Shown here one piece after another: positions 34,306-54,131 of a stretch of DNA of 64,000 bases. The DNA comes from an uncultured Erysipelotrichaceae bacterium (lineage in GTDB: Bacteria; Bacillota_I; Bacilli_A; RFN20; DUOF01): the NCBI GenBank assembly GCA_964442785.1, contig CAYTZW010000002.1:2457-66456 (forward strand). Direction: 5' to 3'. Under the pieces are notes generated by a model. The model saw only the letters and a list, made by a program, of their open reading frames with translations, was not told the DNA's origin and searched no databases. The translations under genes and the position numbers were made by a program. Within the stretch, counting starts at the first letter, position 1, and each line of letters opens with the position of its first letter.

Positions 34306-34361
34306 AAATAACACCCCCAAGATTGCATCTTTTGTAAGTATACATCTCTTTTACATTGTAC

Positions 34362-34390
34362 ATTATATATATATATATATATAAATGCAA
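34362..34390 (-). promoter_or_regulatory. Predicted sigma-A promoter of paralog A: TTGCAT, then a 17-nt spacer made of T plus (TA)n, then TATAAT
   Basis: Read directly from the sequence. The (TA)10 tract at 34364-34383 forms the spacer and the 5' part of the -10 hexamer. Confidence 0.55.
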
Positions 34391-34527: not shown

Positions 34528-35559
34528 ATGGATAATAAACCAATGAAAAGCAGTATTGAAATTGATGACATTTTTGTCAACATTAAAGAATTAGTAATTA
34601 ATAGTAGGAATAAAGTATACCAAACGGTAAATACTGAAATGCTTAATTTGTATTAGAATATAGGAAAAGCAATTATTGGAATACAATTAGGCGATGAAAG
34701 AGCAAATTATGGTGATGCTGTTTTGGAAAAGTTGTCAGAAAAATTAACTAGTGAATTTGGAAAAGGATTTTCTAAGAGAAATCTTGAAAGAATGCGAAAA
34801 TTTTATATATGTTTCCCAATTACGACAACAGTGTCGTCGCAATTAAGCTGGTCTCATTATTTAGAACTTATCAAAATTGAAGAAGAACCAAAAAGAAATT
34901 TTTATTTTAATGAATGTATTAATTCTAAATGGAGTGTTCGAGAACTCCAAAGACAAAGAAACTCCCTGCTTTATGAAAGATTGATTTTATCCGCTGATAA
35001 AGAAAAAGTATTGGAATTATCGGAAAAAGGTCAAATATTGAAAACAAGTAAAGACTTAGTAAAAGACCCTTTTGTATTAGAATTTTTGGATATAAAAGAA
35101 AATACCAATTATTTAGAATTTGATTTAGAAAAAAATATTATAGAACATTTAAAAGAATTTTTGCTTGAACTTGGAAAAGGATTTAGTTATGTCGGAAATC
35201 AAATGAGATTAACATTAGAAGAAGACCATTTTTATCCTGATTTAGTATTTTACAATAGACTTTTAAAGTGTTTTGTAATCATTGATTTAAAAATAGGAAA
35301 AGTATCACATCAAGATATTGGACAAATGCAAATGTATGTAAATTATTATGATAGAGAAATTAAGCAAGCTGATGAAAACGCAACAGTTGGAATTTTACTT
35401 TCAACAGATAAAAATGAAACTGTCGTAAAATACACTTTACCTAAAGATAATAAAACTATTTTTTCTTCAGAATTCAAATTGCATATGCCAACTGAAGAAG
35501 AATTAATTAATGCCATAGAAGAAGAAAAGAAGAACTTTAAATTGAATGAAAAATAATAA
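34528..35559 (+). pseudogene. DUF1016/YhcG-like (PD-(D/E)XK nuclease family) gene with an in-frame amber stop at codon 43
   Basis: AGGAGG RBS, then ATG at 34528. The product reads ...EMLNLY*NIGKAIIG..., whereas the family has LYWEIGK, so TGG (Trp) has become TAG at 34654-34656. Downstream are DUF1016 motifs FGKGFSKRNLERMRKFY and QLSWSHYLEL. The track ORF 34723-35556 is the 3' portion. Confidence 0.6.
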
Positions 35560-35831: not shown

Positions 35832-38800
35832 TTATAATGCTTTTTTATGTTTCTTTATGACAATTACTTCAAGTGCTAACAAAGAAGAAATTATTATCAT
35901 TGAAACAAATAACATATAATTAGGTTTTCTAATATTTTCTTTAATTACGATGTTAGAAGTAGATAAGGTTATTTCTTTAACTTCATTACTAGCCACTTCA
36001 GTTTCTGAAGAATTAAAGATTATATTAGCACTACCAGTATTAGTTATATTAATACTACCTGATTTAAGAATAAGAGGATTTGTATCTTTATCATCTAATT
36101 TAAGCATAATGTATAACTCAACATTTCCTATTAATCCTTGAGGAGTAGTTATTGCTCCTTTTTCAAAGAATTTAGACGCTGGCATATTATTGGAAGGACT
36201 ATAAGTAACTCCATATTTTTTAAATCCGTCTTCTAATAAAACATCAGTAGAATAGTTACCATATTTACCTACAAAATAAACCGCTATTCCATTTTTATAT
36301 TCTTCTTGGATATTATTATTTCCTGATATAGTAAAGGATATTTGTCCATTGTTAAGCTTAGCATCGTTTATAATAGCCTTACTAGGAACGGTTCCGTCAT
36401 CATTTATCTCAATAGCAATAGAAGTCATATTACCTGCATAATCATAAGCACTAATACTATATGAACCTGCTGAAGATATAATATATCTATCTCCTGTTCC
36501 TGTGTAATTATCCGCTCCTGATACTACATAGTTTTTAAACATTTTATCTTCAAAAAATAACGTTAAGGGAACATTACTATGATAACTTATTTGCTTATCT
36601 TCTAGTACTTCTCCACTAGAAGAATTAAGTCGTATATTAGGAGATGTGGTATCTGCTAAAATAGTGTATTTATATTTTAATGTACCATAATATATTTCAC
36701 TATAATAATGAGGAGTTTTCCCTGAAAAAATTGCAACATTGCCTGAAGTATCTGCTCCTCGATTGAAAATCCAAAGATAATATGTCGTATTTTGAGTAAC
36801 TTTTGGAGCAGTTGTCATAAATGAAACTTTTGTAGTAGTGGTAGATATAAATGCTGGCTTTAAATCCCAAGTTGGTGATTCAGTATCGCTTATTGACCAA
36901 TCGTACCAATAAGTATAAGTACCATTATACAATTCAATATTATCTGTAATTTCAAAATAAATAGGGGTATTTGTTACTACTTCATTTATATCTTCAGTAT
37001 ACCAAACTGGTGGTTCTGTATCTGCATCAGTATCTGTATCTGTATTAGAGCCACTTGAAACATTAATAGTATATTTGTATTTAACATAATCAGTATAATA
37101 TGAAGTTGAATAATAAGGCTCTTTTCCTGAAAAAGTCGAAATATTGCCTACATAGTCTTTTCCTATGCTAGAAATCCATAAGTAATAGGTTTTACTATAA
37201 GTAACCATTGGTGCTGTAATTGAAAAAGAAACTTTTGTAGCAGATGTTTCTATAAAAGTGGTTAACCAAGTAGGTTTAGAATTTTTTGTAGTAGACCAGC
37301 CATAACAATAAAATTCACTTGCAGTTAGAAAACTATATAGACGTCTATTATCGGTTAATTGTACATATACACTATCTCCTGAATTGATTTCCGTTACATC
37401 TTCAGTATACCAAACTGGAGCTTCTGTATCATTACTATCTGCCAAAACAGTATAGTTATATATAACTTTGCTACTATAAGAAGTGTTACTAGATGCTGGG
37501 GATTTTCCCTTAAAAGTTGCAAGATTGCCAGCAGCATCTTTTCCTTGGTAATAAATATAAAAACTATATACAGCATCTTCTGTTACATATGGTGCTTTTA
37601 TGCTGAAACTAATAGTATTTGAAGTTTGCAAAGTGAAATTTGATTCAAGAGTGGAAGTATACCAACCATATTTATAATAAGTTGATGCAGATGAAAAACC
37701 CCATATTTTTTTATTATCAGTTAATTGAAAATTAAGAATAGTTCCTGAGTTGATTTCCGTTATATCTTCTGTATACCAAACTGGAGCTTCATTATCTTCT
37801 TTAATGTGATATTCATATATAAGGTATAAATAATCCCCGCAAGAATATGGTTCTTTTCCTGAAAATGTTGCAACATTACCTGCTAAATCCTTGCCTCTCT
37901 TATAAATCCATAAATAATAATTTGTATTAGATTTTACAAATGGTGCAGTTGTAGTAAAAGAAATCTTTGTTGGCGATACTATAGAATATTTATACGACCA
38001 AGAAGATGGAGTTTCAGTAGAACTAGTGGACCAACTATAGCCATAATAGGAATAGTCTCTATTAGCATACCTATAATATTCTATTTCAAATAAGTCTGTT
38101 AATTGAAAATTTAATTCTTGACCTGATTCTATTTCATAAATATCATCTGTATACCAAATTGGTGCCTCATCATCACCAATAATATAATATTCATACACAA
38201 CACACGAGTCATATGTATCTCCATATGAAATAGGTTGTTTTCCTGAAAATGTTGCAAGATTTCCTGAATCATCTTTACCTCTATGTTGAAGCCACAAATA
38301 ATATATTCCACTTTCAACTTTACTTGGTGTTGTTTTAAAATGATACATACTTGAAGAATGACCAATATATTGTTCGGACCAATATGATGGTTTTGTGGAA
38401 GAACTAGTAGACCAACCATATCGGTAATAATATGAATAGTAAGTAGAAGTAGAAGTTTCTTCTTCAATATAAATATTTGTTCCTGTTAATTTAAATTCAA
38501 GAGGTGTCCCACTATATATTTTATACAAATCATTAGTATTCCAAACAGGAGCGGTCGAAGAAGTAGTTCCACCAGAACTGCTTGACCCACCTGAAGAACC
38601 AGAACTGCCTGATTCACTCGAACTACCCGAACTACTTTCTATTATTTTTGTAACTGTTATCGTGATATTATAAGTAACATAAACTTCCTTATTGGAGCCA
38701 TAATAATCAATAACAGTAAAAGTATAAGTTCCTGTTGTATTTAAATTATAGTAATAATCTCCTCTTAAAGTTACACAAGAAGAATAATATCCACAATAAG

Positions 38801-39057
38801 AGCCATTATCGGCAACTATAGTAACTGAAACTGGTCCTTTTAAACTAAGACTTTTGGTAACAACATCACCTTTTTCATACATAACGCCATAATATTCATA
38901 TGAATTTCCTTCAGCATCATCTATCATAATGCAAGCATTTTCTTCCAAAACATCATCAACTCCTGCTTTTATGTTTTGACTTGTTACCAAAAACATACCT
39001 AAAAAAGCCATAAATAAGGCTAATAAAGCTACTTTTTCCTTTTTCATATATAACACC
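35832..39057 (-). CDS. Surface protein paralog B (about 1075 aa): signal peptide, Ser/Gly-rich linker, 5-6 repeats of about 115 aa of a HYR/DUF5011-like module, conserved C-terminal anchor module
   Basis: Start refined to MKKEKVALL, which has a GGGGGTG RBS. Repeats read APVWYTEDIxEIxSG...QLTD...YYLWI..GKD.AGN.ATFSGK. The C-terminal module is near-identical to paralog A. Confidence 0.7.
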
Positions 39058-39109
39058 CCCAAGATTATGTCTTTCACACCCAAAAGTACATATCTTTTTC
39101 ACAAAGTCC

Positions 39110-39148
<39 letters not shown>

Positions 39149-39172
39149 CTTTTTAAAATTACAAGAAAGGTT

Positions 39173-39192
39173 TATATATCTTTAGATATATA
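39173..39192. promoter_or_regulatory. Palindrome TATATATC-TTTA-GATATATA, second copy
   Basis: Identical sequence and spacing (24 nt from the -35) as at 34415-34434. Confidence 0.4.
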
Positions 39193-39232
39193 AAAAAGAT
39201 ATTAGCACCTATCCTTTAGTATCACTAATATC
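39186..39232 (-). terminator. Terminator after psd
   Basis: AAGATATTAG stem, 19-nt loop, CTAATATCTT stem, followed on the minus strand by TTTTTTAT. Confidence 0.5.
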
Positions 39233-40081
39233 TTATTTTTTAATTCCTATTTTTTCTCCACATAAAACATAAGTTTCTACTTCTGCTTGAGTATTTATAA
39301 AAAACTCCTCATCAAGTTTTATTTTATTTTCTTCAACTAGCACTACAATCGTAGAGCCACCAAATTCAAATTTGCCTTTTTCCATACCTTTTTGGAAAGA
39401 CCCTTCATTGTGATAATTAACAATTCTTCCTACCATCATTGCCCCTACTTCCACTTGAGTTACATCTCCAAAGTTTTTTGTATGCATTATTGTATATTCA
39501 CGACAATTTTCACTAAAAACTTTTCTTTTTGACAAAGCAAAAGGTTGTACCGTATGTAATTTCCCTTTAATAAAAACATTTTCCCCTTTATCGCAATCAT
39601 CAAGATAAAAATATCGATGATAATCTTCCACTGCTAATCTAAAAACTAAACACAAACCATTTTGATATTTAGCGGCAAGTTCTTTATTTTGTAATAACGT
39701 TTCAACATTATACTTAAAATCTTTTATAACAAACTCCGTTTTCTCATTTATAGGAAAAACAGTCATTTTCCCGTCGCAAGGAGCAATAAAAGCATCATCA
39801 CTATAATCAAATGGTCTTTTATTTTCTTTTATTTTACGGGTGAAAAAATCATTAAAACTAACATACTCTTTTTCTTCAAATTGATTCATATCAATATTAT
39901 TATTTTTTATGTATTTTCCAATTCTTCTTTTAGACAATTTGCTATCTAAATATTTACCCACTAATTTAGAAATCCACCTTTGAGTTAAAAAATACAAACA
40001 TAAGTTTCCTAATAAAGTATTATATAAAAATTTAACGGATTTAGGGGTTTTTAGTTCTTCTTTTTTTAAAGTCTTACGCAT
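39233..40081 (-). CDS. psd: Phosphatidylserine decarboxylase proenzyme
   Basis: 282 aa with the FGGST self-cleavage motif and other PSD-family conservation. Confidence 0.8.
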   Translation of the reverse strand: MRKTLKKEELKTPKSVKFLYNTLLGNLCLYFLTQRWISKLVGKYLDSKLSKRRIGKYIKNNNIDMNQFEEKEYVSFNDFFTRKIKENKRPFDYSDDAFIAPCDGKMTVFPINEKTEFVIKDFKYNVETLLQNKELAAKYQNGLCLVFRLAVEDYHRYFYLDDCDKGENVFIKGKLHTVQPFALSKRKVFSENCREYTIMHTKNFGDVTQVEVGAMMVGRIVNYHNEGSFQKGMEKGKFEFGGSTIVVLVEENKIKLDEEFFINTQAEVETYVLCGEKIGIKK

Positions 40082-40082
40082 T

Positions 40083-40763
40083 CTAAATTACCCAAAATTT
40101 TAAAACTGCTAAGAATATTAATAGTAAAGCAACACCCAACAAAATCTTCATAATGGTTTTGAACCCAACTTTTGGTATTCTAAATTTCAAAATGAAAGCG
40201 AATGCTACTACTATATATCCTATTAGCATTGTTAAAGTATAGCCTAAAGACCCATTTGAAAACATAGTTGCTATTAAATAACAAGCCGGTATGATAACAG
40301 CAGCATTAGTTACTGGTAATCCGTCATAATATTTTCTTTTGCCACAATCTTCTTTTTCGGTTCTTAATATTTCAGTTACATCAAAATACGCTAATCTAAT
40401 TAAAGCACACAAAACATAAAGAATGAAAATAGGAAGAAAATACCACCTGTTAATTCCCATACCAAACATAATCGCCGTAGGTGCTAAACCAAAAGCAATT
40501 AAATCTGATAAGGAATCAATTCTTTCACCAAACATTAAATCTTCTTTACTTCTATTTTTTCTAGTTCTGGCAACCATTCCATCAAAGGAATCGCATATTC
40601 CTGAAATAAGTAAACAAATAACTCCAATATATGGTAAAGGTTCTTTATTCCCCCCCCACCGAGAAGTAAATTCCAACCACACCTGCCGCAACAGACATAT
40701 AAGTTAAAATAACTCCATAATGATAAAATCCTAAAAAAGGACATTTTGATTTACTTTGCATAA
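40083..40763 (-). pseudogene. pssA: CDP-diacylglycerol--serine O-phosphatidyltransferase (pssA) interrupted by a +1 frameshift in a G8 tract
   Basis: The N-terminus MQSKSKCPFLGFYHYGVILTYMSVAAGVVGIYFSVGG is in one frame and stops after the G8 run at 40650-40657 on the coding strand. The track ORF 40083-40691 (GGNKEPLPYIGV...CDSFDGMVAR, a CDP-alcohol phosphotransferase motif) follows in another frame. Removing one G gives a continuous protein. Confidence 0.6.
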
Positions 40764-40775
40764 TACAACCTCCAA

Positions 40776-41819
40776 TTAAATTTCTTTAATAACCTTTTCT
40801 TTTTTATAAAACAAATGATAGCAAATCGTAAAAATACCACTTATAAGCATATTCAAATAATAAGCTATGATTCTTGTAATCATTACGGCTACCACTATAA
40901 AACTTTCTGAAAAAAACAATCCAAATATATTAAGATATAAATACTCATACGCTATTGAACCACCTGGCAAAGGTATTGAATTATAGCCTAACAAAACTAA
41001 TGATTGTAGAATAAATACTTCCCAAAAAGAACAATCTATTCCAGCCTTACAAACAAAACAAGAAATCATAACTTGTGAAGACCTTTGAGCCACATTTAAA
41101 ACTACAACAGGCAACAATATCTTTTTATGTTTTTTCAATTCTTCATAACAACTGCTATATTTATCAATAACACCATCTATTTTTCCTAACCATTTATCTT
41201 TTCTTCTAACTATTCTTATTTTAGAAAGAAAATTAACCATTCCATAGCAAAACTTTTTAACCAAAGAGGCCTTGCATATACAAAGAACAAAAAAGCTTAA
41301 CAACAAAATTTGAGAAACAAATCCTAAAATAATTAAAGTTTTTACAAAAGCCGATAATTGTAAAAAGGTATCAAATCCGAAAATCATTGCTACGCTACCA
41401 ATAATAAGAATAGCTAAAGTATAACCTATAAGATTAAAAATCAAAGAAAATCCGGTTGTACCACCTGAAATTCCATCTCTTACCATATAGAAAGCACTTG
41501 CGGGTTGACCTCCAGTAGCAGAAGGTGTAATCGCTGAATAATATGTATCCGCAGTAGTATAAGCTATTGAAGATATAAATCGAGGTTTATATCCAAATTT
41601 ATTTAAAATGACATCTAAACTTATAGCTTCAAATAAAATGAATAAAAGCCAACAGCAAAAAGCTAAGACTAAATATTCTATCTTAGCAGAAAAGAAAAAG
41701 TTTTTAATATTAGAGAAATTAAGCTCTCCTGTATTTTTAGATAATATATAAATCGTTAACACTAAAAGCAGAACTACAAAAAGAATATTTGCTAACTGTT
41801 TTTTTACATTTTTCTTCAT
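40776..41819 (-). CDS. Polytopic membrane protein, UPF0104 / lysylphosphatidylglycerol-synthase TM-domain-like (flippase-like)
   Basis: 347 aa with 8-10 TM helices, directly upstream of pssA-psd. Confidence 0.45.
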   Translation of the reverse strand: MKKNVKKQLANILFVVLLLVLTIYILSKNTGELNFSNIKNFFFSAKIEYLVLAFCCWLLFILFEAISLDVILNKFGYKPRFISSIAYTTADTYYSAITPSATGGQPASAFYMVRDGISGGTTGFSLIFNLIGYTLAILIIGSVAMIFGFDTFLQLSAFVKTLIILGFVSQILLLSFFVLCICKASLVKKFCYGMVNFLSKIRIVRRKDKWLGKIDGVIDKYSSCYEELKKHKKILLPVVVLNVAQRSSQVMISCFVCKAGIDCSFWEVFILQSLVLLGYNSIPLPGGSIAYEYLYLNIFGLFFSESFIVVAVMITRIIAYYLNMLISGIFTICYHLFYKKEKVIKEI

Positions 41820-42024
41820 TAAAAGTTCTCCTTTTTTGTTTTTATTCTAACAATTTTCGACAGCAAAATCAATTATATATATATATATATATGCAGAACT
41901 AACAAATATTTTGTTTTAATTTACCATTTCAAAGATTTTTTGTTCACTTTTTAATTGAAAATCAAAACTTTCCCATTGATATATATATATATATTAAAAT
42001 TAAATCAAAGGGGAGGAAACTTTT

Positions 42025-42690
42025 ATGAAAAAGAAAAATTTTTTATTAATTTTATTTTTAGGACTTAGTTTAAGTTTATTTGGTGGTTGCAAAATAGGTG
42101 ATAACTTCTTCAATGACGGCAATGATACACCAACAGTTTCTGAAAAAGATCAAAAATATGATGTCTATCTAATGGCAGTTGAAGAAGGATTAACTTCTTT
42201 AACATATGAAGATTGGCTAGATACCATTAAAGGAGAAATTGGACCTGAGGGTCCTGCTGGTAAGAAATTATTACTAAATATAAGTTCTACACATATTCAA
42301 TATAAATATGAAGGTGACCTTACGTGGACAAATTTAATTTCATTAAATAAGTTAAAAGGCGAAGATGGCACTGATGGCAGAGAAGTTAAATTTTGTACGA
42401 CAGACACTGCTATACGATGGAAATATGAAGATTATAATTACATTAAAAAATGTGACGAATGGAATTTTCTAATATCTTTCAATGAACTTAAAGGTGAAGC
42501 CGGTAAAGACGGTAAAGATGGTGCAACTTGGCATACTGGAGAAGGAGAACCCCTCTACAATCCAAATATACATAATGACGGTGATTTATACCTAGATAGT
42601 AAAACCGGTATTATTTATGAATGCAACGTCGTTTATTGGACAAAAGTAATTGATTTAACTGAAATAAAAAAAGAAAAAAATAACTGTTAA
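42025..42690 (+). CDS. Lipoprotein with collagen-like G-x-y triplet motifs; apparent 5' fragment of a larger surface-protein gene
   Basis: AAAGGGGAGG RBS. Lipobox LFGGC. Three repeats of the LKGExGxDG type (GEIGPEGPAG, GEDGTDG, GEAGKDGKDG). Ends in a poly-A tract. Confidence 0.55.
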   Translation: MKKKNFLLILFLGLSLSLFGGCKIGDNFFNDGNDTPTVSEKDQKYDVYLMAVEEGLTSLTYEDWLDTIKGEIGPEGPAGKKLLLNISSTHIQYKYEGDLTWTNLISLNKLKGEDGTDGREVKFCTTDTAIRWKYEDYNYIKKCDEWNFLISFNELKGEAGKDGKDGATWHTGEGEPLYNPNIHNDGDLYLDSKTGIIYECNVVYWTKVIDLTEIKKEKNNC

Positions 42691-43219
42691 TTTTGATACC
42701 AATTTACCCGCATATATGTATGAATTTGATGATTATATTGAAAATAATGAAAATTTGAAAGAAACAACTATTGATAAAGGTTCTTGGCTACAATTAGAAA
42801 CTTTTAAAAATACTAAACTGAAAGAATATTTTTTAGGTTGGTACATTGGTGAAGGTGTGGATGAAACAAAAATTACTAGCTATACTAGCATCAACGAAGA
42901 TTGCACATTAACAGCAAAATGGGATTATGAAAAGATTGATGAAACTTACACTAGTCTCGGAGTAGAAATGTATTCAAATATTTATGATGCTTATGCAAAA
43001 CTAACTTCTAGTTGTGGTGATGTTGTTCATATTGCTAAGACTTATAAAGAAGTACCTATAACATATGTGAGGGATTTTGCTGCTGCTACAAGCACCTCTG
43101 AAATATTACTTCCAGGTTCTGCTAGTGCCTTAATATTCCCTAAAGAAAGTATTAATGAAAGTAATATTGATTTAACTCTTACCTATCTATCTAAAATAAA
43201 AAAAATACTAGCCTTTTAA
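42668..43219 (+). pseudogene. Flg_new (Listeria-Bacteroides repeat) domain segment, out of frame with the upstream lipoprotein ORF
   Basis: The frame opens inside AAAAAAAGAAAAAAA at the end of the 42025 ORF. TVNFDTN...FLGWYIGEG...CTLTAKW is a Flg_new repeat. The track ORF 42716-43219 is part of it. Confidence 0.5.
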
Positions 43220-43716
43220 AAGTTTCGTGGTACGGAGAAATAACAGCAGATACCATTGGTTTTGGAGCATTTTATAATTGTACTGCTTTAACTGATATCG
43301 ATATTCCTGAAACGATTACAGAGATTGGAGATTATGCTTTCTATAACTGTACAAGTTTGAAACGGTTATTATTTAAAAACGTAGAAACTATAGGTGATTA
43401 TGCTTTCTATAATTGTTCAGCATTAAAAGGTTATGGGATGGTTTTTTGGATTTTTGAATCTTTAAAAAGTATAGGTGATCATGCTTTTGAAGGTTGTACT
43501 TCTTTAAAATCAATTGACATTAATTCAGATGAAATTGCAAATTTAGAAGATAATAACAGTTACTTATTTAGTTATGCAAATACAATTTATATTAAACGTT
43601 CTATTACTACTGAAACTACAGCTTACTTAGATGAAACCCAAGGACATTTTACTGGAGATAGAAAAACTGATAACTTCAATTCGCATTATAAGATAACCAA
43701 AGTAAAAGAAAACTAA
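43192..43716 (+). pseudogene. BspA-type leucine-rich-repeat (LRR_5) segment, out of frame with the preceding piece
   Basis: The frame opens at the A8 tract. Repeats read IGFGAFYNCTALTDIDIPETITEIGDYAFYNCTSLKRL.. and ..IGDHAFEGCTSLKSIDI. The track ORF 43357-43716 is the 3' part. Confidence 0.5.
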
Positions 43717-43871
43717 TTACTATTTTTTCTAAAAAGAAAAGTAGACTATTGACAAAACAATTTTTGTTAATAGTCTTTTTATTTATAAAAAATATCCTAA
43801 CAAAAGAAAAACTTGCTTATCATTTGTTAAATAATTTGACTTATGCTTCTTACATTTTCAATAGTTATCTA

Positions 43872-44705
43872 TTATCTATTCTTAATATTGCAATGTTGTT
43901 GCATTGATATTTCACACATTACAATCGTCGTAGAAACACTTACATTCAAAGAATCACAGTTTCCCAACATTGGAATGGATATTAGTTTAGTATCTTGAGA
44001 GTACCACCCTCGATTAATACCATATCTTTCATTTCCTGCCACAAAAGCAACATTACCTTGATAATTTTCTTGATAATATCTTTTTGTCGCTCTAGTATCA
44101 GTCAAATAAGTAACAAATTTATGTTCTTGTAACCACTTTTGACATTCCACCATATCATTCCATTCAATAATAGGAACAAAGAAACAACCACCCATAGCAC
44201 TCTTTATTGTTTTAATACTATTGATTTTAGCTCTTTTGTTGGTAATAAAAATAGCATCTACTCCAAATCCTTCAGCAGCCCTTATAACCGTTCCTATATT
44301 ACCAGAAGTTTCTAATCCGTCTAAAATTACAATTTGATTATTTTCCTTCTTTAACAACTTTTCCAAATCCCAAGAAGGAAATTTTCCCATAACCATAACT
44401 CCGTCAGGTCCGTCAAAAGTAGAAATTTTATCAAATACTTTCTTAGAAACTGAAATAAGTTCTATTTCTCTTTCAAATAATTGTTCCAAAACTTCACAAG
44501 TTTTCTCATTATTTAAGTATTCTTCACAATATAAAATACTAATTATTTTAATCTCACTTTTAGTCAAATAATCTAAGCACCAAACTCCCTCAACAACAAA
44601 AGTATCGTTGCTTTTTTCTTTACCATTTATCATTTCCTGAAACATTTTAACCTTTTCATTAGAATGACCAGCAACAACTATTCTATCTTTAAACTTTTCA
44701 AACAT
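43872..44705 (-). CDS. TrmH/SpoU family RNA 2'-O-methyltransferase
   Basis: LETSGNIGTVIRAAEGFGVD, VAGNERYGI and GNCDSLNVSVSTTIVMCE. Confidence 0.7.
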   Translation of the reverse strand: MFEKFKDRIVVAGHSNEKVKMFQEMINGKEKSNDTFVVEGVWCLDYLTKSEIKIISILYCEEYLNNEKTCEVLEQLFEREIELISVSKKVFDKISTFDGPDGVMVMGKFPSWDLEKLLKKENNQIVILDGLETSGNIGTVIRAAEGFGVDAIFITNKRAKINSIKTIKSAMGGCFFVPIIEWNDMVECQKWLQEHKFVTYLTDTRATKRYYQENYQGNVAFVAGNERYGINRGWYSQDTKLISIPMLGNCDSLNVSVSTTIVMCEISMQQHCNIKNR

Positions 44706-44706
44706 T

Positions 44707-45381
44707 TTACATTCCTCCTTTTATCAAAAACAATATTGCAATATGCAAAGGATAATAAGCATAAAAAGCATATTTCCATTTAGGGTGATACAATCCTCTT
44801 TCTCCATTATAAAGATATATTAAAACAATCGGTAAAAGAAGAAAATAGCCTTCTTCTAAATACATATTAAAAATGGAAAACCTTTGTAAATAAACCGCTA
44901 AAATAGTCCAAACAAAATAGACAACAAGGCTTAATTCAATATTAGAATAAAATAGATAAAAAATCAAAATAGTTATTAATCCAAAGATTTTATATTGAGT
45001 TAAACTATATTCGGACATTGTCGATACTAATATTAAAACTAACAATATTTGAGCAAAAACATTTTTCTTATATAACAAGAAACAACATAAAGCTCCTAAT
45101 CCTAAATCTATAAAAGCATTAGGTACTAAACTTTTATTTATCAAGGAAGCTACTAGACTAAAAAGCAAACCACAGCCTAGTAATATGGAAATGTATTTAC
45201 ACTTATTTTTACTATATTGCATAGTTATGGCGGTTAAAAAAGCAAACAAAGGTAAAGCAATTCTTCCAATAATTCTAAAAAGGCGAATTTCAGGAAAAAG
45301 AAAATACCCAATATGGTCTATAGTCATTGCGATTAAGGCAATTATTTTCAAAGAGAAAGAACTAAATATTTTTTTCATCAC
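44707..45381 (-). CDS. TraX-family membrane protein
   Basis: The N-terminus LKIIALIAMTIDHIGYF is typical of the TraX family; polytopic. Confidence 0.5.
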   Translation of the reverse strand: MMKKIFSSFSLKIIALIAMTIDHIGYFLFPEIRLFRIIGRIALPLFAFLTAITMQYSKNKCKYISILLGCGLLFSLVASLINKSLVPNAFIDLGLGALCCFLLYKKNVFAQILLVLILVSTMSEYSLTQYKIFGLITILIFYLFYSNIELSLVVYFVWTILAVYLQRFSIFNMYLEEGYFLLLPIVLIYLYNGERGLYHPKWKYAFYAYYPLHIAILFLIKGGM

Positions 45382-45434
45382 AAAACCTCTTACATATTAT
45401 ACAACATTATTTTTCTACCACAAAATTATTTATT

Positions 45435-46310
45435 ATGATAAAATATCTAAGAGGTGGATTTATGAGTAGAATTGCAATAAGCTGTGATAGTACTTGCTCT
45501 ATTGATAGAAGTGAGGCTTTAAAAGAAGGAATATATATTTTACCTTTAAATGTTATTGTCGATGATATTGAATATCACGACGGTATCGATATTGACCAAA
45601 AGAAGTTAGCTCCAATGATGCGAAATGGTTCAATAATAAAAACTTCTACTCCAACACTAGGAGAATTAAAAAATTATTTTGATAACATATTTGAGCAAAG
45701 ATACGACCATATCATTCATATTTGTATTTCCAGCAAATTAACAAGTATTTACAATATGACTACCAAATTTTGTCAAGAAAACTATGGTGATAAAGTAACC
45801 GTAATTGACAGTTTAAACGTTTGTAGTTTTATGGGAAACTTAGTTAGATACGCTAATGAATTAGCCAAAAAAGAGTATAATGTACCAGAAATAGTTAAAG
45901 GAGTAACCAGCAGAATTCAAGAAACCGAAATCTACTTTTGTCCAGAAACTTTAACCTACTTAAAAAAAGGTGGTCGTATAAGTCCTGCTATTGCTTTATT
46001 AGGTAATTTAATTGGAATTAAGCCAATTCTAAAATTTGTCAATGGAGGACTTGAAAAAGAAGGAACAACTCACGTAGTAAAAAAAGAATGCGAAAAAATC
46101 CTTAAACATTTAAAAGAAAAAAATTACGATACTAACCTTTATGAACTGCATATTTTATCATTTGATTGTCCTGAATTAGAAGAATATGTCTTCCAAAAAA
46201 CAATGGAAATATTACCTTGTATTGAAATAAAAAGAACTGTCTTATCCATAAATGTTTGTGCCCACGCAGGACCAGGTACTATTGGAATAGGAATTTGTTT
46301 AAAAATATAA
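45435..46310 (+). CDS. DegV family fatty-acid-binding protein
   Basis: IAISCDSTCSI...GIYILPLNVIVDD... is DegV-like. Confidence 0.7.
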   Translation: MIKYLRGGFMSRIAISCDSTCSIDRSEALKEGIYILPLNVIVDDIEYHDGIDIDQKKLAPMMRNGSIIKTSTPTLGELKNYFDNIFEQRYDHIIHICISSKLTSIYNMTTKFCQENYGDKVTVIDSLNVCSFMGNLVRYANELAKKEYNVPEIVKGVTSRIQETEIYFCPETLTYLKKGGRISPAIALLGNLIGIKPILKFVNGGLEKEGTTHVVKKECEKILKHLKEKNYDTNLYELHILSFDCPELEEYVFQKTMEILPCIEIKRTVLSINVCAHAGPGTIGIGICLKI

Positions 46311-46380
46311 TATTTAATAAAAAAGTTACCTTGAACCACCCAACTTTTTGGGTTTTCATCAAAAGGTAACTTTTTTTTAA

Positions 46381-47187
46381 TTAAGACAATAAATCTTCAA
46401 AAGTTTCTCCTATTGTATCTTCAATACTAGCAATACTAACATAGCTAATACCAACAATTTCTCCTGGATATTCTAAAATATATTTTCCAACAGGATAAGA
46501 AAAATTCAAAGTAAATAAATCTGAAGATATCATTTTAATGGAATAATCTTTACTAATAACAACTTTTAAATTTTCTTCTGTTTCTATATTAATAATGTAT
46601 TCATAATTATCGATAATAAATGATGTTTCTCCTAAATTTAATAAATAATCTAAAAAATATAAAAGATAATTTTCTCTATTAAATATTTGGACATAATCTT
46701 CACTTGTTAAGTTTTCTAACATTGTTAAATCAAGAGAATTAACAAATAAAGGTAAATATAATAATAAATCATCAACGTATTCTTTAATTCCTAATTTCAA
46801 ATCACTATCTATTCCCATATCTTTCAAAGGAACTTTAAAATAAAGATTTTTATTTCTCAAATTCAATTTTAAATTATAGAAATCTATTTTATTAAATTCT
46901 AAACTAAAGGAACTATTTTTAATGGTATCTCTATTAATCATTTTTAAAGAAATAGTCGAATTATCAATCATCTCTCCATTTATTTCAAAAGCTTGAGTAA
47001 CCATTAATTTCTTTTGAATATTCTCAATTAAAGAATTGGTATTATAAGGTTTGCTATATTCATTACTATCTTTTATAATTTCAACTTCATCTTTAGGATA
47101 AAAAGAAAAATCACAACCAAAAAGAGTAGCACCAGAAAGTGCTATTAGCAAAACTAATACAGATACCCTTTTTAGAATTTTTTTCAT
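46381..47187 (-). CDS. Lipoprotein of unknown function
   Basis: Signal peptide with lipobox LFGCD. Confidence 0.5.
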   Translation of the reverse strand: MKKILKRVSVLVLLIALSGATLFGCDFSFYPKDEVEIIKDSNEYSKPYNTNSLIENIQKKLMVTQAFEINGEMIDNSTISLKMINRDTIKNSSFSLEFNKIDFYNLKLNLRNKNLYFKVPLKDMGIDSDLKLGIKEYVDDLLLYLPLFVNSLDLTMLENLTSEDYVQIFNRENYLLYFLDYLLNLGETSFIIDNYEYIINIETEENLKVVISKDYSIKMISSDLFTLNFSYPVGKYILEYPGEIVGISYVSIASIEDTIGETFEDLLS

Positions 47188-47200
47188 TTTTATACCTCAA

Positions 47201-47530
47201 CTATTTCAAAATATTAATAACGCTTTCTGGAAAGAAGATAACCGCAACAAAGCAAATGATAATAACTAAATAAATAATAAATAAAATACCTGCTCCATTT
47301 TTAGTCTTTCCTACTAAAATTTGACTTAAAGACAAAAGTGATAAAATATATATCCCATATTTACAAATGTAAGAGTACATTTGAGAAAACCATTCTCCTG
47401 TTGGAGTAATTACTACTGAAGAACCAGACAATAGCAAACACTTTTGTAAAGCACTAACTCCTAAAACATAAATAATTATGGCTGCTAATATTCCTGATAA
47501 AATACCACAAATCTTTCCTAAATTATTCAT
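47201..47530 (-). CDS. Small membrane protein
   Basis: 109-aa ORF with 3 TM segments. Confidence 0.4.
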   Translation of the reverse strand: MNNLGKICGILSGILAAIIIYVLGVSALQKCLLLSGSSVVITPTGEWFSQMYSYICKYGIYILSLLSLSQILVGKTKNGAGILFIIYLVIIICFVAVIFFPESVINILK

Positions 47531-47663
47531 AAAAACTTCCTCCCATTAAATATTTGCCAAAATTGTACTTCAAAAAAACAATTTTGTCATAAAGATATCG
47601 TTATTTGTGAATAACTAGGCTACATTATAACTTATTTAGAAAAATTAATAAAGATAACTTTTT

Positions 47664-48128
47664 TTAATCCGTTAAATCAACAAGTTCAAATTTCAACACT
47701 TTTTCTAAACTAGATAAAGAAAGTTCTACTTGATAGCCTATTTTTCCACCACTAAAAATTATTGTATTATAACAACCAGCACTTATATCAATAAAAGTTG
47801 GAAAAGCCTTTTTCATTCCAAGAGGAGAACAACCACCGTGAACATATCCTGTCAAAGAAAGTAAATCTTTCATCTTAATCATCTCAACACTTTTTTCTTT
47901 GACTACTTTAGCAGCTTTTTTTAAATTAAGATTTTTTTCTACAGGTATTAAAAAAACATAATAATGATTACCACCTTTAGTTACCAAAGTTTTAAATACT
48001 TGCAAAGGATTTTGATTTAAAGCCTTAGCGACATCTATTCCACTTATCGCACCACTTTCAAGGTAATTATGACTAATATATTCTATTTTATGCTGGTCTA
48101 AAATTCTCATTACATTTGTTTTTTCCAT
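47664..48128 (-). CDS. ybaK: Cys-tRNA(Pro)/Cys-tRNA(Cys) deacylase YbaK
   Basis: 154 aa; GYVHGGCSPLGMKK is YbaK-like. Confidence 0.7.
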   Translation of the reverse strand: MEKTNVMRILDQHKIEYISHNYLESGAISGIDVAKALNQNPLQVFKTLVTKGGNHYYVFLIPVEKNLNLKKAAKVVKEKSVEMIKMKDLLSLTGYVHGGCSPLGMKKAFPTFIDISAGCYNTIIFSGGKIGYQVELSLSSLEKVLKFELVDLTD

Positions 48129-48208
48129 TTTTTCTTCCTTTTTTCTATTTTTGTGATTAATTTTAACTCATTGCCTTTTTTCTTTCAATTAAATATAATG
48201 TAAAAGAG

Positions 48209-48619
48209 GTGTTTAGTATGAAAGTTTTATCCCTTAAAGAACCTTTTGCAACTTTAATAAAAGAAAAAAAGAAACTTATTGAAACAAGAAGTTGGAAAAC
48301 ATCATATCGAGGAGAATTATACATTCACGCCAGTATCAGTAAAATTGCCACTAACATTAAAGAAAACCAAGAATTAATGGATTTAGTAGGTGATACCCCT
48401 TTTTCCTATGGACACATAATTTGTAAATGTAATTTAATAGATTGTATTTATATGACCAAAGAATTTGTCAATGAAATTAAAAATAATAACCCTCAAGAAT
48501 ATATATGTGGACATTACAAAGAAGGAAGATATGCTTGGATATTAGAGGATATCACTCCTTTAAAAGAACCTATCAAAGCCAAAGGACAATTAAGTATTTG
48601 GAATTATAAAAAAGAATAG
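48209..48619 (+). CDS. ASCH-domain (PUA-like) protein
   Basis: LIETRSWKTSYRGELYIHAS resembles the ASCH core. Confidence 0.5.
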   Translation: MFSMKVLSLKEPFATLIKEKKKLIETRSWKTSYRGELYIHASISKIATNIKENQELMDLVGDTPFSYGHIICKCNLIDCIYMTKEFVNEIKNNNPQEYICGHYKEGRYAWILEDITPLKEPIKAKGQLSIWNYKKE

Positions 48620-48622
48620 TTT

Positions 48623-49528
48623 TTAAAACCATTCTTCCATTTCTTTAGCCATTATCATTTTAACATCTTCTTTTAGAACTTTGAAGTGAGCAGAACCAAC
48701 AAGACCTTCTTCTCCGTCTAAGTTCCAAACTCTTTTTTCTTCAAATTCAATATCACACTCTGGAACGGTGAATTTTTTAATATTTCTATCTTTTAATCTT
48801 ACTATTCCAAATGTGAACATTTTAAGTATTTTAAATAATCCATTTAAAAATGATTTTTTGATTAAAATGACATCAACTTTTCCGTCATTTAATTTAGCGT
48901 TATCATTTAATCTAAAGCCTCCAATAGAGGTTGTATTAGCCACAAAGACATACGAATATTCTCCTTCGTATACTTGATTATCAATAGTAACCTTAATATT
49001 CATTGGCTTGTTTTTAACCTTGAAAACTAAACCTACTCCGTGAGTAAAATACGCTAATTTACCTAAAGCTTTTTTTGAAGAAGATTTTAATCCATAAGAT
49101 ATAGCAGTATAACCTCCAATAGCGGCAACATAAATAAAGTATTTGTCATTTATTTGACATACATCGTGAGTAACCACATCTCCTGTCAAAATTAAATTGA
49201 CACTTTTTTTAACATTTTTAGACATTTTAAGGTTTCTAGCCATATCACAAACAGTTCCACACGGAATATACCCCAAAACTGGAGAATTTGGTTTATTAGC
49301 AACTCCATTAATTACTTCATTAAAAGTTCCGTCTCCCCCACATAAAATCAAATAGTCATATTTACCACAAGCTTCATTAGCAATTTTTGTTGCGTGTCCT
49401 TCATATTGAGTAGGAACAATATCTAAAACAGAAAACTTTTCTCCAAGTTTTGCTTTAATATAATCAAGTTTTTTTGTAAGTTTTTTAGAAGAACCACTAT
49501 TAGGATTATAAATTAATATACATTTCAT
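48623..49528 (-). CDS. Diacylglycerol-kinase-family lipid kinase (DagK/YegS-like), copy 1
   Basis: The GGDGT motif (LILCGGDGTFNEVINGV) and DAGK catalytic-domain layout. Confidence 0.75.
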   Translation of the reverse strand: MKCILIYNPNSGSSKKLTKKLDYIKAKLGEKFSVLDIVPTQYEGHATKIANEACGKYDYLILCGGDGTFNEVINGVANKPNSPVLGYIPCGTVCDMARNLKMSKNVKKSVNLILTGDVVTHDVCQINDKYFIYVAAIGGYTAISYGLKSSSKKALGKLAYFTHGVGLVFKVKNKPMNIKVTIDNQVYEGEYSYVFVANTTSIGGFRLNDNAKLNDGKVDVILIKKSFLNGLFKILKMFTFGIVRLKDRNIKKFTVPECDIEFEEKRVWNLDGEEGLVGSAHFKVLKEDVKMIMAKEMEEWF

Positions 49529-50187
49529 CTTTTTTCACTCTTTTCATCATTAAATTGTAAATATAATTTTATCATTTCATCACAAGCAGAATTAACCAAA
49601 CCATTATTAATATATGCTTGTTGATAGATTTCTAAATATTTTTTATTTTTTCTAACCATATTAAAGATAATACAATTATCATTACCTAACATATTATAAT
49701 TATTATTTGAGTTAATTAAAAGAGCAAAATCATAATTAGACATAAATACTAAAGGTAAATTCTCTTTAAATTCCCATATTTTTTCTACATAATCTGCTTC
49801 ATTTTCAATTATTTTAGTTTCCACTTCTTTATTATCAAGATATTTTTTCAAAATAATTCTTATTAAATATTCTTTATTATCTTCCACTTTTTCTTGTAAA
49901 TGAACATAAACAAAGGAATTATAACTATTTTTATTAGACAATTTCTTTACTTTTTTGAAAGTTTTCATATCAATATAATTAACTTTTAGATAATTCTTTA
50001 AAATCAACAAAAAAGAAAAACCAAGCACTAGTAAAATAAAAGCAAAAATTCCTAAAAAGATATAAAAAACAAATTTCAAATAAAAAAAGGAATACAAAAT
50101 CAAAGTCACTAAAATGATAACAAGCAACATATTAAGAAGTTTTTTCATTATGATTACCTCTTTTCCTAAAATAAAGATACAAAGCAT
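49525..50187 (-). CDS. Membrane protein of unknown function, co-operonic with the lipid kinase
   Basis: ATGA overlap with the kinase start; 2 TM segments. Confidence 0.4.
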   Translation of the reverse strand: MLCIFILGKEVIIMKKLLNMLLVIILVTLILYSFFYLKFVFYIFLGIFAFILLVLGFSFLLILKNYLKVNYIDMKTFKKVKKLSNKNSYNSFVYVHLQEKVEDNKEYLIRIILKKYLDNKEVETKIIENEADYVEKIWEFKENLPLVFMSNYDFALLINSNNNYNMLGNDNCIIFNMVRKNKKYLEIYQQAYINNGLVNSACDEMIKLYLQFNDEKSEKR

Positions 50188-54130: not shown

Positions 54131-54131
54131 T

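What the first reader, a model, noticed from the sequence alone, without database searches (positions are those of the whole stretch)
41870..43716. A lipoprotein / collagen-like / Flg_new / BspA-LRR surface gene broken into three ORFs exactly at poly-A tracts, with TA-repeat tracts in its promoter region
Three consecutive ORFs lie in three different frames: 42025-42690, 42668-43219 and 43192-43716. Each junction sits in a homopolymeric A run (AAAAAAAGAAAAAAA at about 42669-42683, and A8 at about 43192-43199). The Flg_new repeat begins upstream of the annotated ATG, inside the previous ORF's tail. Together the pieces form a typical Flg_new plus LRR_5 surface-protein architecture. Upstream there are a (TA)9 tract (about 41874-41892) and a TTGATA-(TA)n-TAAAAT arrangement (41976-42000) with only about 13 nt of spacing. 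Either this is a contingency gene switched by poly-A slippage and TA-spacer variation, or it is a pseudogene, or homopolymer sequencing errors are present.
Basis: partly seen in the sequence, partly recalled or inferred. Interest (0 to 1): 0.6.

Follow-up and report, generated by a model that had tools for sequence, protein, structure and literature searches.

The report
Frameshifted accessory surface lipoprotein gene
What looks like three small genes is one strain-specific surface-protein gene, switched off by two single-base slips in runs of A; this is an ordinary kind of recent gene inactivation, sitting next to unstable TA repeats that may act as promoter switches.

Summary
The three ORFs at 42025-43716 are one gene. 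Removing one A at the A7-G-A7 run (42666-42680) and adding one A to the A8 run (43198-43205) gives a 563-aa protein. It aligns end to end with intact single-ORF homologues (44-51% identity; Candidatus Onthoplasma and unnamed metagenome contigs). Two points in the finding are wrong. Only two frames are used, because ORF1 and ORF3 share a frame. Pfam finds LRR_5 but not Flg_new.

The gene has one ribosome-binding site and one terminator. It lies on a 1,980-bp segment (41891-43870) that is absent from five congeneric contigs (about 85% DNA identity), where the SpoU and mprF-like genes are 74 nt apart.

An independent Logan assembly of run SRR10277277 is identical over 11.56 kb, including all poly-A lengths, except (TA)10 versus (TA)9 at 41874-41891. 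So plain assembly error is unlikely, and a TA tract is the only element seen to vary.

The broken copy keeps 103 of 108 family-invariant residues, so the lesions are recent. Its A7/A8 runs are no longer or denser than the genome background.

Best reading: a fresh slipped-strand inactivation (OFF state) of a dispensable surface gene. An evolved contingency switch is not excluded. Interest is low to moderate.

The parts
41874..41891 (.). (TA)9 microsatellite. It lies directly upstream of the -35 box of the mprF-like gene's promoter and at the left edge of the strain-specific segment.
   Evidence: No (TA)8 match is expected by chance. The tract is (TA)10 in the otherwise identical Logan contig L017. 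Relatives have an imperfect TATATACTTATATAT here.
41844..41872 (-). Promoter of the divergent mprF-like (LPG_synthase_TM) gene: TTGATT, 17 nt, TG-n-TAGAAT. It is not part of the target gene.
   Evidence: Consensus scan. The same sequence is conserved in relatives that lack the target gene.
41891..43870 (.). A 1,980-bp strain-specific segment carrying the putative promoter, the gene and the terminator. It is absent from congeneric genomes.
   Evidence: blastn of L011-L014 against the window shows collinear flanks, with the match breaking at 41890 and 43871. L018 has the same gene order, with 74 nt between the SpoU and mprF-like genes. GC content is 28.3%, close to the window's 27.4%.
41976..42000 (+). 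Putative promoter: TTGATA, a 13-nt spacer made of the (AT)8 tract (41979-41994), then TAAAAT. The spacing is 4 nt short of the 17-nt optimum.
   Evidence: Sequence reading. No sigma-70-like site with 16-18 nt spacing lies upstream of the gene on the + strand. The tract is identical in L017. Homologues have TTGACT-17-TATAAT and no TA repeat.
42010..42016 (+). The only Shine-Dalgarno sequence of the unit (GGGGAGG), 8 nt before the ATG at 42025.
42025..42690 (+). Segment 1 (221 codons): signal peptide with the lipobox cysteine Cys22, and an N-terminal module with three short Gly-X-Y runs. It ends 3 codons after the frameshift.
   Evidence: Cys22 is invariant in all 6 aligned family members. The piece is recorded as a singleton protein held by NCBI and Logan.
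42666..42680 (+). Junction 1: A7-G-A7. One A too many (or two too few) moves reading into the +1 frame.
   Evidence: The overlap of the two open frames is 42668-42687. Deleting one A from 42674-42680 gives EKITVNF, matching EKVTVNF in homologues. Homologues have only GAAAAAGT here.
42668..43219 (+). Segment 2 (+1 frame): the most conserved part of the family (YFLGWYIGEGVDETKITSYTSIN.DCTLTAKWDY). It consists of a B-repeat-like beta-grasp followed by the start of the LRR solenoid.
   Evidence: It is 77% identical to the Onthoplasma gene over 97 codons by tblastx. The AlphaFold2 model has pLDDT 78.6. Foldseek hits are the InlB B-repeat and TpLRR. There is no ribosome-binding site or start codon near its beginning.
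43198..43205 (+). Junction 2: A8. One A too few returns reading to the original frame. It lies in a lineage-specific Lys-rich linker (TLTYLSKIKK).
   Evidence: The overlap of the open frames is 43195-43216. The conserved NTSLLKVSW begins right after the run. Homologues have no A-run at this position.
43195..43716 (+). Segment 3 (same frame as segment 1): BspA-type leucine-rich repeats and the conserved C-terminal domain.
   Evidence: Pfam LRR_5, E = 2.7e-25. All 41 of 41 family-invariant residues are retained.
43743..43776 (+). Intrinsic terminator: a 15-bp stem followed by a T-run. It is the only one in the unit.

Best explanation
One accessory gene for a roughly 563-aa surface lipoprotein has been knocked out of frame twice by single-base slipped-strand indels in ordinary poly-A runs. 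The protein has a signal peptide with a lipobox cysteine, short Gly-X-Y runs, a B-repeat-like beta-grasp and BspA-type leucine-rich repeats.

Junction 1 (A7-G-A7) carries one A too many. Junction 2 (A8) carries one A too few. From the single ribosome-binding site, only a 221-aa N-terminal lipoprotein fragment can now be made. The two downstream pieces have no translation signals of their own.

The lesions are real features of this genome and very recent. In this genome the gene is in a genetic OFF state that amounts to a nascent pseudogene. It sits on a dispensable 2-kb segment that sister genomes lack. Its putative promoter also has a spacer that is too short (13 nt), made of a TA repeat.

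Reversal by further slippage is possible in principle. However, the A-runs are the normal by-product of AAA lysine codons in a 27% GC genome, not specialised switch tracts.

Shown: one gene; the position and sign of both shifts; absence of the gene from relatives; agreement of two assemblies; retention of conserved residues.
Inferred: that the indels arose by replication slippage; that the promoter is weak; that the gene is dispensable.
For: - Intact single-ORF homologues of 557-595 aa align across both junctions. tblastx against the Onthoplasma locus changes frame exactly at the two runs.
- The unit has one ribosome-binding site, one terminator, and no start signals for pieces 2 and 3.
- The Logan contig from SRR10277277 is identical over 11,557 nt, including A7/A7/A8, and differs only by one TA unit. 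The three pieces are recorded from both NCBI and Logan.
- The repaired protein keeps 103 of 108 positions invariant in the five intact homologues, and 88 of 89 downstream of the first frameshift. This is as good as the intact members in a leave-one-out test. Hence there has been no long period without selection.
- The gene is absent from five related contigs. A sixth relative (L010) has a different sequence at the site.
- The A-run density in the gene (1.8 per kb) is about the window average (2.0 per kb). A8/T8 runs sit in frame in several other genes. Homologues lack the runs.
- The same stretch of the genome carries other fresh lesions that relatives do not have. pssA has G7 expanded to G8. 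psd has GAA changed to TAA. A YhcG-like gene has an in-frame TAG at a conserved Trp.
Against: - No read-level data were available, so fixation of the tract lengths within the population is not shown.
- Both assemblies may derive from the same reads.
- Two lesions with no other damage is also what a reversible two-tract switch would look like.
- TA microsatellites that vary or differ in length sit in front of this gene and of two neighbouring secreted-protein genes. So this organism may well use repeat-based switching.
- Poly-A runs of 8-9 are proven phase-variation or hypermutation tracts in Vibrio cholerae wbeL and manA, and manA has two tracts (PMC3441752).
Confidence: 0.55

Rival explanations
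1. Evolved contingency (phase-variable) locus. Expression of the adhesin-like lipoprotein would be gated at two levels: TA-repeat length sets promoter spacing, and poly-A length sets the reading frame. The genome was simply sampled in the OFF/OFF/OFF state. Partial in-frame states would give truncated variants of 221 aa or about 397 aa.
For: - The gene encodes a surface lipoprotein with LRR domains, the typical class of phase-variable genes.
- The (AT)8 tract lies exactly between a -35-like and a -10-like hexamer, with a 13-nt spacer. Two more TA units would give 17 nt.
- The TA tracts are far beyond chance. One differs by one unit between two assemblies of the same strain.
- Two paralogous secreted-protein genes nearby carry (TA)10 and (TA)15 between TTGCRT and TATAAT.
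- There is no decay of the coding sequence.
- Precedents exist: hifA/hifB (TA)9-11 (PMC2651432), TA tracts before Mycoplasma mycoides lipoprotein genes (PMC3053259), and V. cholerae poly-A tracts (PMC3441752).
Against: - The poly-A runs are of background length and density, and homologues lack them.
- Neither the poly-A runs nor the (AT)8 tract differ between the two assemblies.
- The one TA tract that does differ lies upstream of the neighbour's -35 box, not in this gene's spacer.
- Being ON requires three independent events.
- The related contig L010 has only (TA)4 in the paralogue-type promoter. So the TTGCAT-17-TATAAT logic is an inference, not a conserved design.
Confidence: 0.25
2. Sequencing or assembly artefact: the homopolymer lengths are miscalled and the real gene is intact.
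For: - All three frameshifts in the window (two here, one in pssA) sit in homopolymers of 7-8 bases.
- The coding sequence is otherwise perfectly preserved.
- The genome is known from a single sample.
- The two assemblies may share the same reads.
Against: - Two different assemblies give identical homopolymer lengths.
- About 127 other homopolymers of 7 or more bases in the window cause no disruption, and nearly every other gene has an intact start.
- The three shifts cluster within 2.5 kb (P = 0.006 if errors were spread at random).
- The shifts have mixed sign.
- The neighbourhood also has two substitution-type premature stops, which homopolymer miscalls cannot produce.
- A 69-kb contig and an exact-match Logan contig suggest short-read data, for which A7-A8 runs are not error-prone. 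This last point is an inference.
Confidence: 0.12
3. Programmed recoding: the full-length protein is made from the frameshifted template. This would need transcriptional slippage on the A-runs or ribosomal frameshifting: -1 on A_AAA_AAA at junction 2 and +1 on the A-run at junction 1.
For: - Junction 2 is a canonical X_XXY_YYZ heptamer (A_AAA_AAA) in the incoming frame, with a stop codon 12 nt downstream.
- A frameshifted A7 allele of V. cholerae wbeL retains some function through non-standard decoding (PMC3441752).
Against: - Two opposite-sign events are needed in the same molecule.
- There is no stimulatory RNA structure downstream of either run (z = +1.5 and +1.3).
- The runs are absent from all intact homologues, so the arrangement is not conserved.
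- Runs of 7-8 A slip much less than the runs of 9 or more known from slippage-dependent genes (own knowledge).
Confidence: 0.05
4. Three genuine separate genes.
For: The depositor's annotation and the Logan annotation call three proteins of 221, 167 and 92 aa.
Against: - Called ORF2 starts inside a conserved domain. Called ORF3 discards half of the LRR region.
- Neither has a ribosome-binding site.
- Conserved sequence continues upstream of both called starts in the same frames.
- All homologues are single ORFs.
Confidence: 0.02

Closest known systems
BspA-type leucine-rich-repeat surface proteins (Pfam LRR_5; e.g. Tannerella forsythia BspA, Treponema pallidum TpLRR)
   Same: The C-terminal part matches LRR_5 well above the gathering score (93 bits against 27.7). 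The modelled middle/LRR part hits the TpLRR structure 6mlx. The protein has a lipoprotein-type N-terminus and is likely surface-located.
   Different: The N-terminal Gly-X-Y module and the highly conserved middle domain are specific to a small family. Only five full-length relatives stood out in the listed results of a search of 5.8 billion proteins. Binding partners are unknown, and here the gene is frameshifted.
Listeria InlB B-repeat / Pfam Flg_new (PF09479)
   Same: The first roughly 85 residues of the middle segment show the same beta-grasp-like topology (2y5p: target TM-score 0.64, probability 0.96, 19-20% identity).
   Different: There is no Pfam match even at E <= 10 for this protein or its homologues. 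The Foldseek E-values are weak (0.1-0.2). An extra helix is inserted.
Poly-A frameshift phase variation or hypermutation in Vibrio cholerae wbeL (A8) and manA (two A9 tracts), PMC3441752
   Same: Single-base indels in coding poly-A runs of 7-9 bases truncate a surface-related gene product. One gene there has two tracts.
   Different: In V. cholerae the tracts are conserved in all strains, variants were isolated, and reversion was shown for manA. Here the tracts are absent from homologues, no variation was seen, and both tracts are out of frame at once.
TA-repeat promoter switches: Haemophilus influenzae hifA/hifB (TA)9-11 (PMC2651432) and Vmm-type lipoprotein genes of Mycoplasma mycoides with (TA)10-16 (PMC3053259)
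   Same: A perfect TA dinucleotide tract lies between -35-like and -10-like hexamers of a surface lipoprotein gene, in a divergent intergenic region. Neighbouring surface-protein genes carry TA tracts of different lengths.
   Different: No transcription data are available. The tract in this gene's spacer did not differ between assemblies. The tract that did differ lies outside a spacer. The organism is a Clostridia-like gut bacterium (nearest named homologue: Candidatus Onthoplasma), not a Haemophilus or a mycoplasma.
Recent pseudogenes formed by homopolymer indels in AT-rich, host-associated bacteria
   Same: Frameshifts occur at A-runs. Several fresh lesions lie in nearby dispensable genes (pssA, psd tail, YhcG-like). 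The affected gene is accessory and missing from relatives.
   Different: There is no sequence decay at all beyond the two indels, so the state could still be reversed.

Membership tests
BspA-type LRR protein (Pfam PF13306 LRR_5) | HMM match above the curated gathering score | tested here: met
   93.4 bits against a cut-off of 27.7 for the repaired protein. 89.2 bits for segment 3 alone.
Flg_new / Listeria-Bacteroides repeat (Pfam PF09479) | HMM match to PF09479 | tested here: not met
   No hit at E <= 0.1 or at E <= 10 for the middle segment, P0001 or P0002.
Flg_new / Listeria-Bacteroides repeat (Pfam PF09479) | B-repeat beta-grasp fold | tested here: inconclusive
   The AlphaFold2 model (pLDDT 78.6) hits InlB B-repeat 2y5p and 7pv9 with probability 0.96-0.98, but with E-values of 0.1-0.2 and a query TM-score of 0.29.
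Collagen triple-helix repeat protein (Pfam PF01391) | Long uninterrupted Gly-X-Y repeat matching the HMM | tested here: not met
   Only three runs of 3-4 triplets. No Collagen hit for the window protein. P0001 scores E = 2.4. Only the homologue P0006 carries a precomputed PF01391 hit.
Bacterial lipoprotein | N-terminal signal peptide ending in a lipobox with an invariant cysteine | tested here: met
   The N-terminus is MKKKNFLLILFLGLSLSLFGG-C22. The cysteine is invariant in all 6 aligned members. Homologues have canonical L-[TS]-[GAS]-C, whereas the window has the looser F-G-G-C. No dedicated predictor was available.
Simple-sequence-repeat contingency locus (phase-variable gene) | Repeat tract in the coding region or promoter whose length changes alter expression | tested here: met
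   The A7-G-A7 and A8 runs set the reading frame. The (AT)8 tract fills the -35/-10 spacer.
Simple-sequence-repeat contingency locus (phase-variable gene) | Tract length polymorphism within a strain or between close strains | tested here: not met
   A7, A7, A8 and (AT)8 are identical in the two assemblies of the strain. Only the neighbouring (TA)9/(TA)10 tract differs. No other strain carries the gene. The test is weak, with n = 2 and possibly the same reads.
Simple-sequence-repeat contingency locus (phase-variable gene) | Tracts longer or more frequent than the genome background, and conserved in relatives | tested here: not met
   Poly-A density is at background level: 1.8 against 2.0 per kb, with 18 other A8/T8 runs in the window. 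The tracts are absent from homologues. The TA tracts do exceed chance.
Simple-sequence-repeat contingency locus (phase-variable gene) | Reversible ON/OFF expression at high frequency | not testable with these tools
   Needs reads, cultures or expression data.
Programmed ribosomal frameshift / transcriptional slippage gene | Slippery motif plus stimulatory element, conserved among homologues | tested here: not met
   An A_AAA_AAA heptamer is present at junction 2. There is no downstream structure and no conservation. Two events of opposite sign would be required.
hif / Vmm-type TA-repeat promoter switch | TA tract forming the spacer between -35 and -10, with repeat number setting promoter strength | tested here: inconclusive
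   The geometry is present (TTGATA, 13 nt, TAAAAT). No promoter with 16-18 nt spacing was found. No variation in this tract was seen. Promoter activity was not testable.

The most novel reading that the evidence does not exclude
This uncultured Clostridia-like gut bacterium may run a repeat-based surface-variation system of the kind known from Haemophilus and mycoplasmas. Perfect TA tracts of different lengths, (AT)8, (TA)9/10, (TA)10 and (TA)15, sit in the promoters of a cluster of orphan secreted or lipoprotein genes at 31.8-43.7 kb. Homopolymer tracts would then gate translation: poly-A in the LRR lipoprotein gene, and G7/G8 in pssA. Under this reading the three-piece gene is the OFF phase of a two-level switch, able to produce modular truncated variants.
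Probability: 0.2. Interest if true: 0.55.

Novelty: new member of a known kind. Interest (0 to 1): 0.3.

Why it matters
As it stands, this is mainly an annotation lesson. Three 'hypothetical proteins' are one frameshifted accessory adhesin-like gene. Its absence from sister genomes marks the SpoU/mprF intergenic site as a spot where surface genes come and go.

If read-level data showed tract-length heterogeneity, the case would change. It would document repeat-driven phase variation of surface proteins in a poorly known, uncultured Clostridia-like lineage. I know of no report of such switches in that lineage; this rests on my own knowledge, not on a literature search. It would also give handles (TA number, A-run length) for tracking host- or phage-driven selection in metagenomes.

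Tried and rejected
- Exact look-ups of ORF1 and of both flanking genes found nothing. In some searches I had also mis-set the minus-strand coordinates. The index lacks the source record, although the cluster table has it.
- Scans of genome contigs and metagenome contigs with the family alignment returned only the Onthoplasma locus and two distant LRR loci. They gave no same-species copies.
- The 840-aa neighbouring protein has no homologue but itself, and its contig could not be fetched.
- Rfam and tRNA scans of the window found nothing.
- I checked other candidate frameshift sites: 28085, 54139, 50140, 49530 and 26644. They are ordinary adjacent genes with their own domains and start signals: two ABC ATPases, CotJB/CotJC, and MscS/DUF951.
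- The AlphaFold2 model of ORF1 was unusable (pLDDT 48.7), so I made no fold search of it.
- Synteny with homologues was rejected. The Onthoplasma locus and the P0002 loci share only the gene itself with the window.
- The 12-nt repeat ATTGATTTAACT before both junctions is within chance expectation (about 1.4 such pairs by my own estimate). I did not interpret it.
- The Vmm paper (PMC135138) is not held. Vmm is cited through PMC3053259.
Full report
**1. What is in the sequence**

On the + strand there are three open stretches: 42025-42690, 42668-43219 and 43195-43716.

The first and third are in the same frame; both start coordinates leave remainder 1 on division by 3. The middle one is shifted by +1. 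So two frames are used, not three as the finding says. The two lesions have opposite sign.

The frame overlaps restrict the shifts to 42668-42687 and 43195-43216. Conservation narrows them further, to the A7-G-A7 run at 42666-42680 and the A8 run at 43198-43205.

- (TA)9 at 41874-41891.
- TTGATA (41976-41981), a 13-nt TA spacer, then TAAAAT (41995-42000).
- (TA)8 or longer is never seen in dinucleotide-preserving shuffles.

**2. One gene, not three**

Deleting one A from the second A7 run and adding one A to the A8 run gives a 563-aa protein.

A search of 5.8 billion proteins found full-length, single-ORF relatives:
- P0001 (557 aa, 51% identity, Candidatus Onthoplasma sp.)
- P0002 (581 aa)
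- P0003 (562 aa)
- P0006 and P0022

They align from the lipobox cysteine to the C-terminus. They run straight through both junctions: EKVTVNF in homologues against EKITVNF here, and NNTTLTKVSW against KKNTSLLKVSW.

tblastx against the Onthoplasma locus changes frame exactly at the two runs.

The unit has one Shine-Dalgarno sequence (GGGGAGG, 42010-42016), one ATG (42025) and one terminator (43743-43776). Pieces 2 and 3 have no ribosome-binding site or start near the beginning of their open frames. Nearly every other gene in the window does.

**3. Domain content**

| Claimed feature | Result |
|---|---|
| BspA-type LRR_5 | Pfam E = 1.3e-26 |
| Flg_new | No Pfam hit, even at E <= 10, for this protein or its homologues |
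| Collagen-like | No Pfam hit for this protein; only three runs of 3-4 Gly-X-Y triplets |
| Lipoprotein | Cys22 invariant in the family; homologues have canonical lipoboxes |

An AlphaFold2 model of the middle segment (pLDDT 78.6) gives weak Foldseek hits to the InlB B-repeat (2y5p, target TM-score 0.64, E about 0.2). It also hits TpLRR.

A model of ORF1 was too poor to use. ORF1 has weak similarity to phage tail-fibre proteins.

**4. Relatives and the origin of the locus**

The repaired PssA protein of the neighbouring gene led to close relatives in Logan assemblies.

Five contigs from different runs (L011-L014, L018) are about 85-86% identical to the window in DNA. All show the order TraX, SpoU methylase, 74 nt, mprF-like gene, pssA, psd.

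The window segment 41891-43870 (1,980 bp) is absent from them. It contains the TA-spacer promoter, the gene and the terminator. Its left edge is the (TA)9 tract, where relatives have an imperfect TATATACTTATATAT. Another relative (L010) has a different sequence at this site.

The gene is therefore accessory, at a variable spot. No genome in the collections has a copy closer than 51% identity. The three pieces are singletons held only by NCBI and Logan. Distant homologues sit in unrelated contexts.

**5. Artefact or real?**

Logan contig L017 (run SRR10277277, 13 kb) matches window 39124-50680 perfectly, with one exception. It has (TA)10 where the window has (TA)9 at 41874-41891. It carries the same A7, A7, A8 and (AT)8 tracts, and the same G8 in pssA.

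Within the window, about 127 other homopolymers of 7 or more bases cause no disruption. The three homopolymer frameshifts cluster within 2.5 kb (P = 0.006 under random placement).

The same neighbourhood carries substitution-type lesions that homopolymer miscalls cannot explain:
- An in-frame TAG at the conserved Trp of a YhcG-like gene (34654-34656).
- A GAA-to-TAA change that shortens psd by 8 codons relative to relatives.

pssA is intact with G7 in seven related contigs and has G8 here. Two lesions in the pssA-psd pathway look like real relaxation of selection.

I rate plain sequencing error at about 0.12. I could not inspect reads, and both assemblies may share them.

**6. Old pseudogene, fresh lesion or switch?**

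The repaired protein keeps 103 of 108 positions that are invariant in the five intact homologues. Downstream of the first frameshift it keeps 88 of 89. This equals the score of intact members in a leave-one-out test.

There are no further stops in about 350 codons downstream of the first frameshift. By my own estimate, random frames in a 27% GC genome close after about 12 codons.

So the lesions are very recent or reversible. An old pseudogene is excluded.

Against a dedicated poly-A switch:
- The gene's A-run density (1.8 per kb) equals the window background (2.0 per kb).
- A8/T8 runs sit in frame in several other genes.
- Homologues have only A5 or nothing at these positions, and have canonical TTGACT-17-TATAAT promoters without TA repeats.
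- Neither poly-A run differs between the two assemblies.

Both junctions fall in Lys-rich inter-domain linkers, where AAA codons naturally form runs in an AT-rich genome.

Programmed recoding is unlikely:
- It needs two events of opposite sign.
- There is no downstream structure.
- The arrangement is not conserved in homologues.

**7. The TA tracts**

The first tract, (TA)9, lies immediately upstream of the -35 box of the mprF-like promoter (TTGATT, 17 nt, TG-n-TAGAAT). That promoter is conserved in relatives lacking the target gene. So this tract is not in the target's promoter spacer, although it is the one tract seen to vary.

The second tract, (AT)8, does fill the spacer between the best -35-like and -10-like hexamers of the target. 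It leaves 13 nt. No promoter with 16-18 nt spacing exists upstream. Two more TA units would give 17 nt.

This geometry matches two known systems:
- hifA/hifB (TA)9-11 (PMC2651432).
- Poly-TA tracts before Mycoplasma mycoides lipoprotein genes, the Vmm type (PMC3053259).

Two orphan secreted paralogues nearby (31783-34305 and 35832-39062, minus strand) share a conserved 5' region. It reads TTGCRT-T-(TA)n-AT with n = 10 (17-nt spacer) and n = 15 (27-nt spacer). The related contig L010 has only (TA)4 there, so the ON/OFF reading is an inference.

These observations keep a repeat-based switching system alive as the most novel reading (probability about 0.2).

**8. Verdict**

This is a real feature, ordinary in kind. 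A strain-specific BspA-type LRR lipoprotein gene was recently knocked out of frame twice by slippage in ordinary poly-A runs, and it has a TA-repeat spacer that probably weakens its promoter.

It is a new member of known kinds: the LRR_5 surface-protein family, and homopolymer frameshift inactivation or possible phase variation. Read-level tract-length spectra would settle whether it is a fixed nascent pseudogene or the OFF phase of a switch.

Noticed in passing
window 40083-40760 (- strand); C8 on the + strand at 40650-40657: The phosphatidylserine synthase gene (pssA, CDP-OH_P_transf) is split into 38-aa and roughly 200-aa pieces by a G8 run, the only G/C run longer than 5 in the window. Seven related contigs have G7 and an intact 225-aa protein. 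The Logan assembly of the same strain also has G8.
   Followed up: yes
window 39233-39235 (stop of psd, - strand): The phosphatidylserine decarboxylase gene ends 8 codons earlier than in relatives, through a GAA-to-TAA substitution. Together with the pssA frameshift, this suggests the phosphatidylethanolamine pathway is being lost in this lineage.
   Followed up: partly
window 34531-35556 (+ strand), stop at 34654-34656: The YhcG/DUF1016-type nuclease gene has an in-frame TAG where the family has a conserved Trp (LYW.IG). The called ORF (34723-35556) therefore lacks about 50 positions of the N-terminal domain profile. This is a substitution-type pseudogene.
   Followed up: partly
window 31783-34390 and 35832-39150 (- strand); TA tracts at 34364-34383 and 39112-39141: Two large secreted paralogues (840 and about 1,076 aa) have no Pfam domain. 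The 840-aa one has no homologue other than itself in 5.8 billion proteins. They share a conserved upstream region with the palindrome TATATATCTAAAGATATATA and the motif TTGCRT-T-(TA)n-AT. The repeat end forms a perfect TATAAT box. (TA)10 gives a 17-nt spacer and (TA)15 gives 27 nt. A related contig (L010, 2700-2900) has only (TA)4.
   Followed up: partly
window 41874-41891 versus L017: The only difference in 11.56 kb between the window and the Logan assembly of SRR10277277 is (TA)9 versus (TA)10. The Logan contig also ends inside the (TA)15 tract at 39124. Both facts are consistent with length heterogeneity or assembly ambiguity at TA tracts.
   Followed up: yes
L010 1-60: In one related strain, the sequence on the SpoU side of the mprF-like promoter differs from both the window and the other relatives. 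It may hold the start of a divergent gene (MKIGDFKK...). This suggests the intergenic site is a hotspot for gain and loss of genes.
   Followed up: no
window 42649-42660 and 43166-43177: The same 12-mer, ATTGATTTAACT (encoding IDLT), precedes both poly-A junctions, followed in each case by ...AAATAAAAAAA. About one such repeat is expected by chance in this AT-rich stretch, so I did not interpret it.
   Followed up: partly
window 53573-54590 (- strand): CotJB and CotJC (Mn-catalase-like) spore-coat genes are present. This fits a spore-forming Clostridia-type organism rather than a mollicute, despite the 27% GC content.
   Followed up: no
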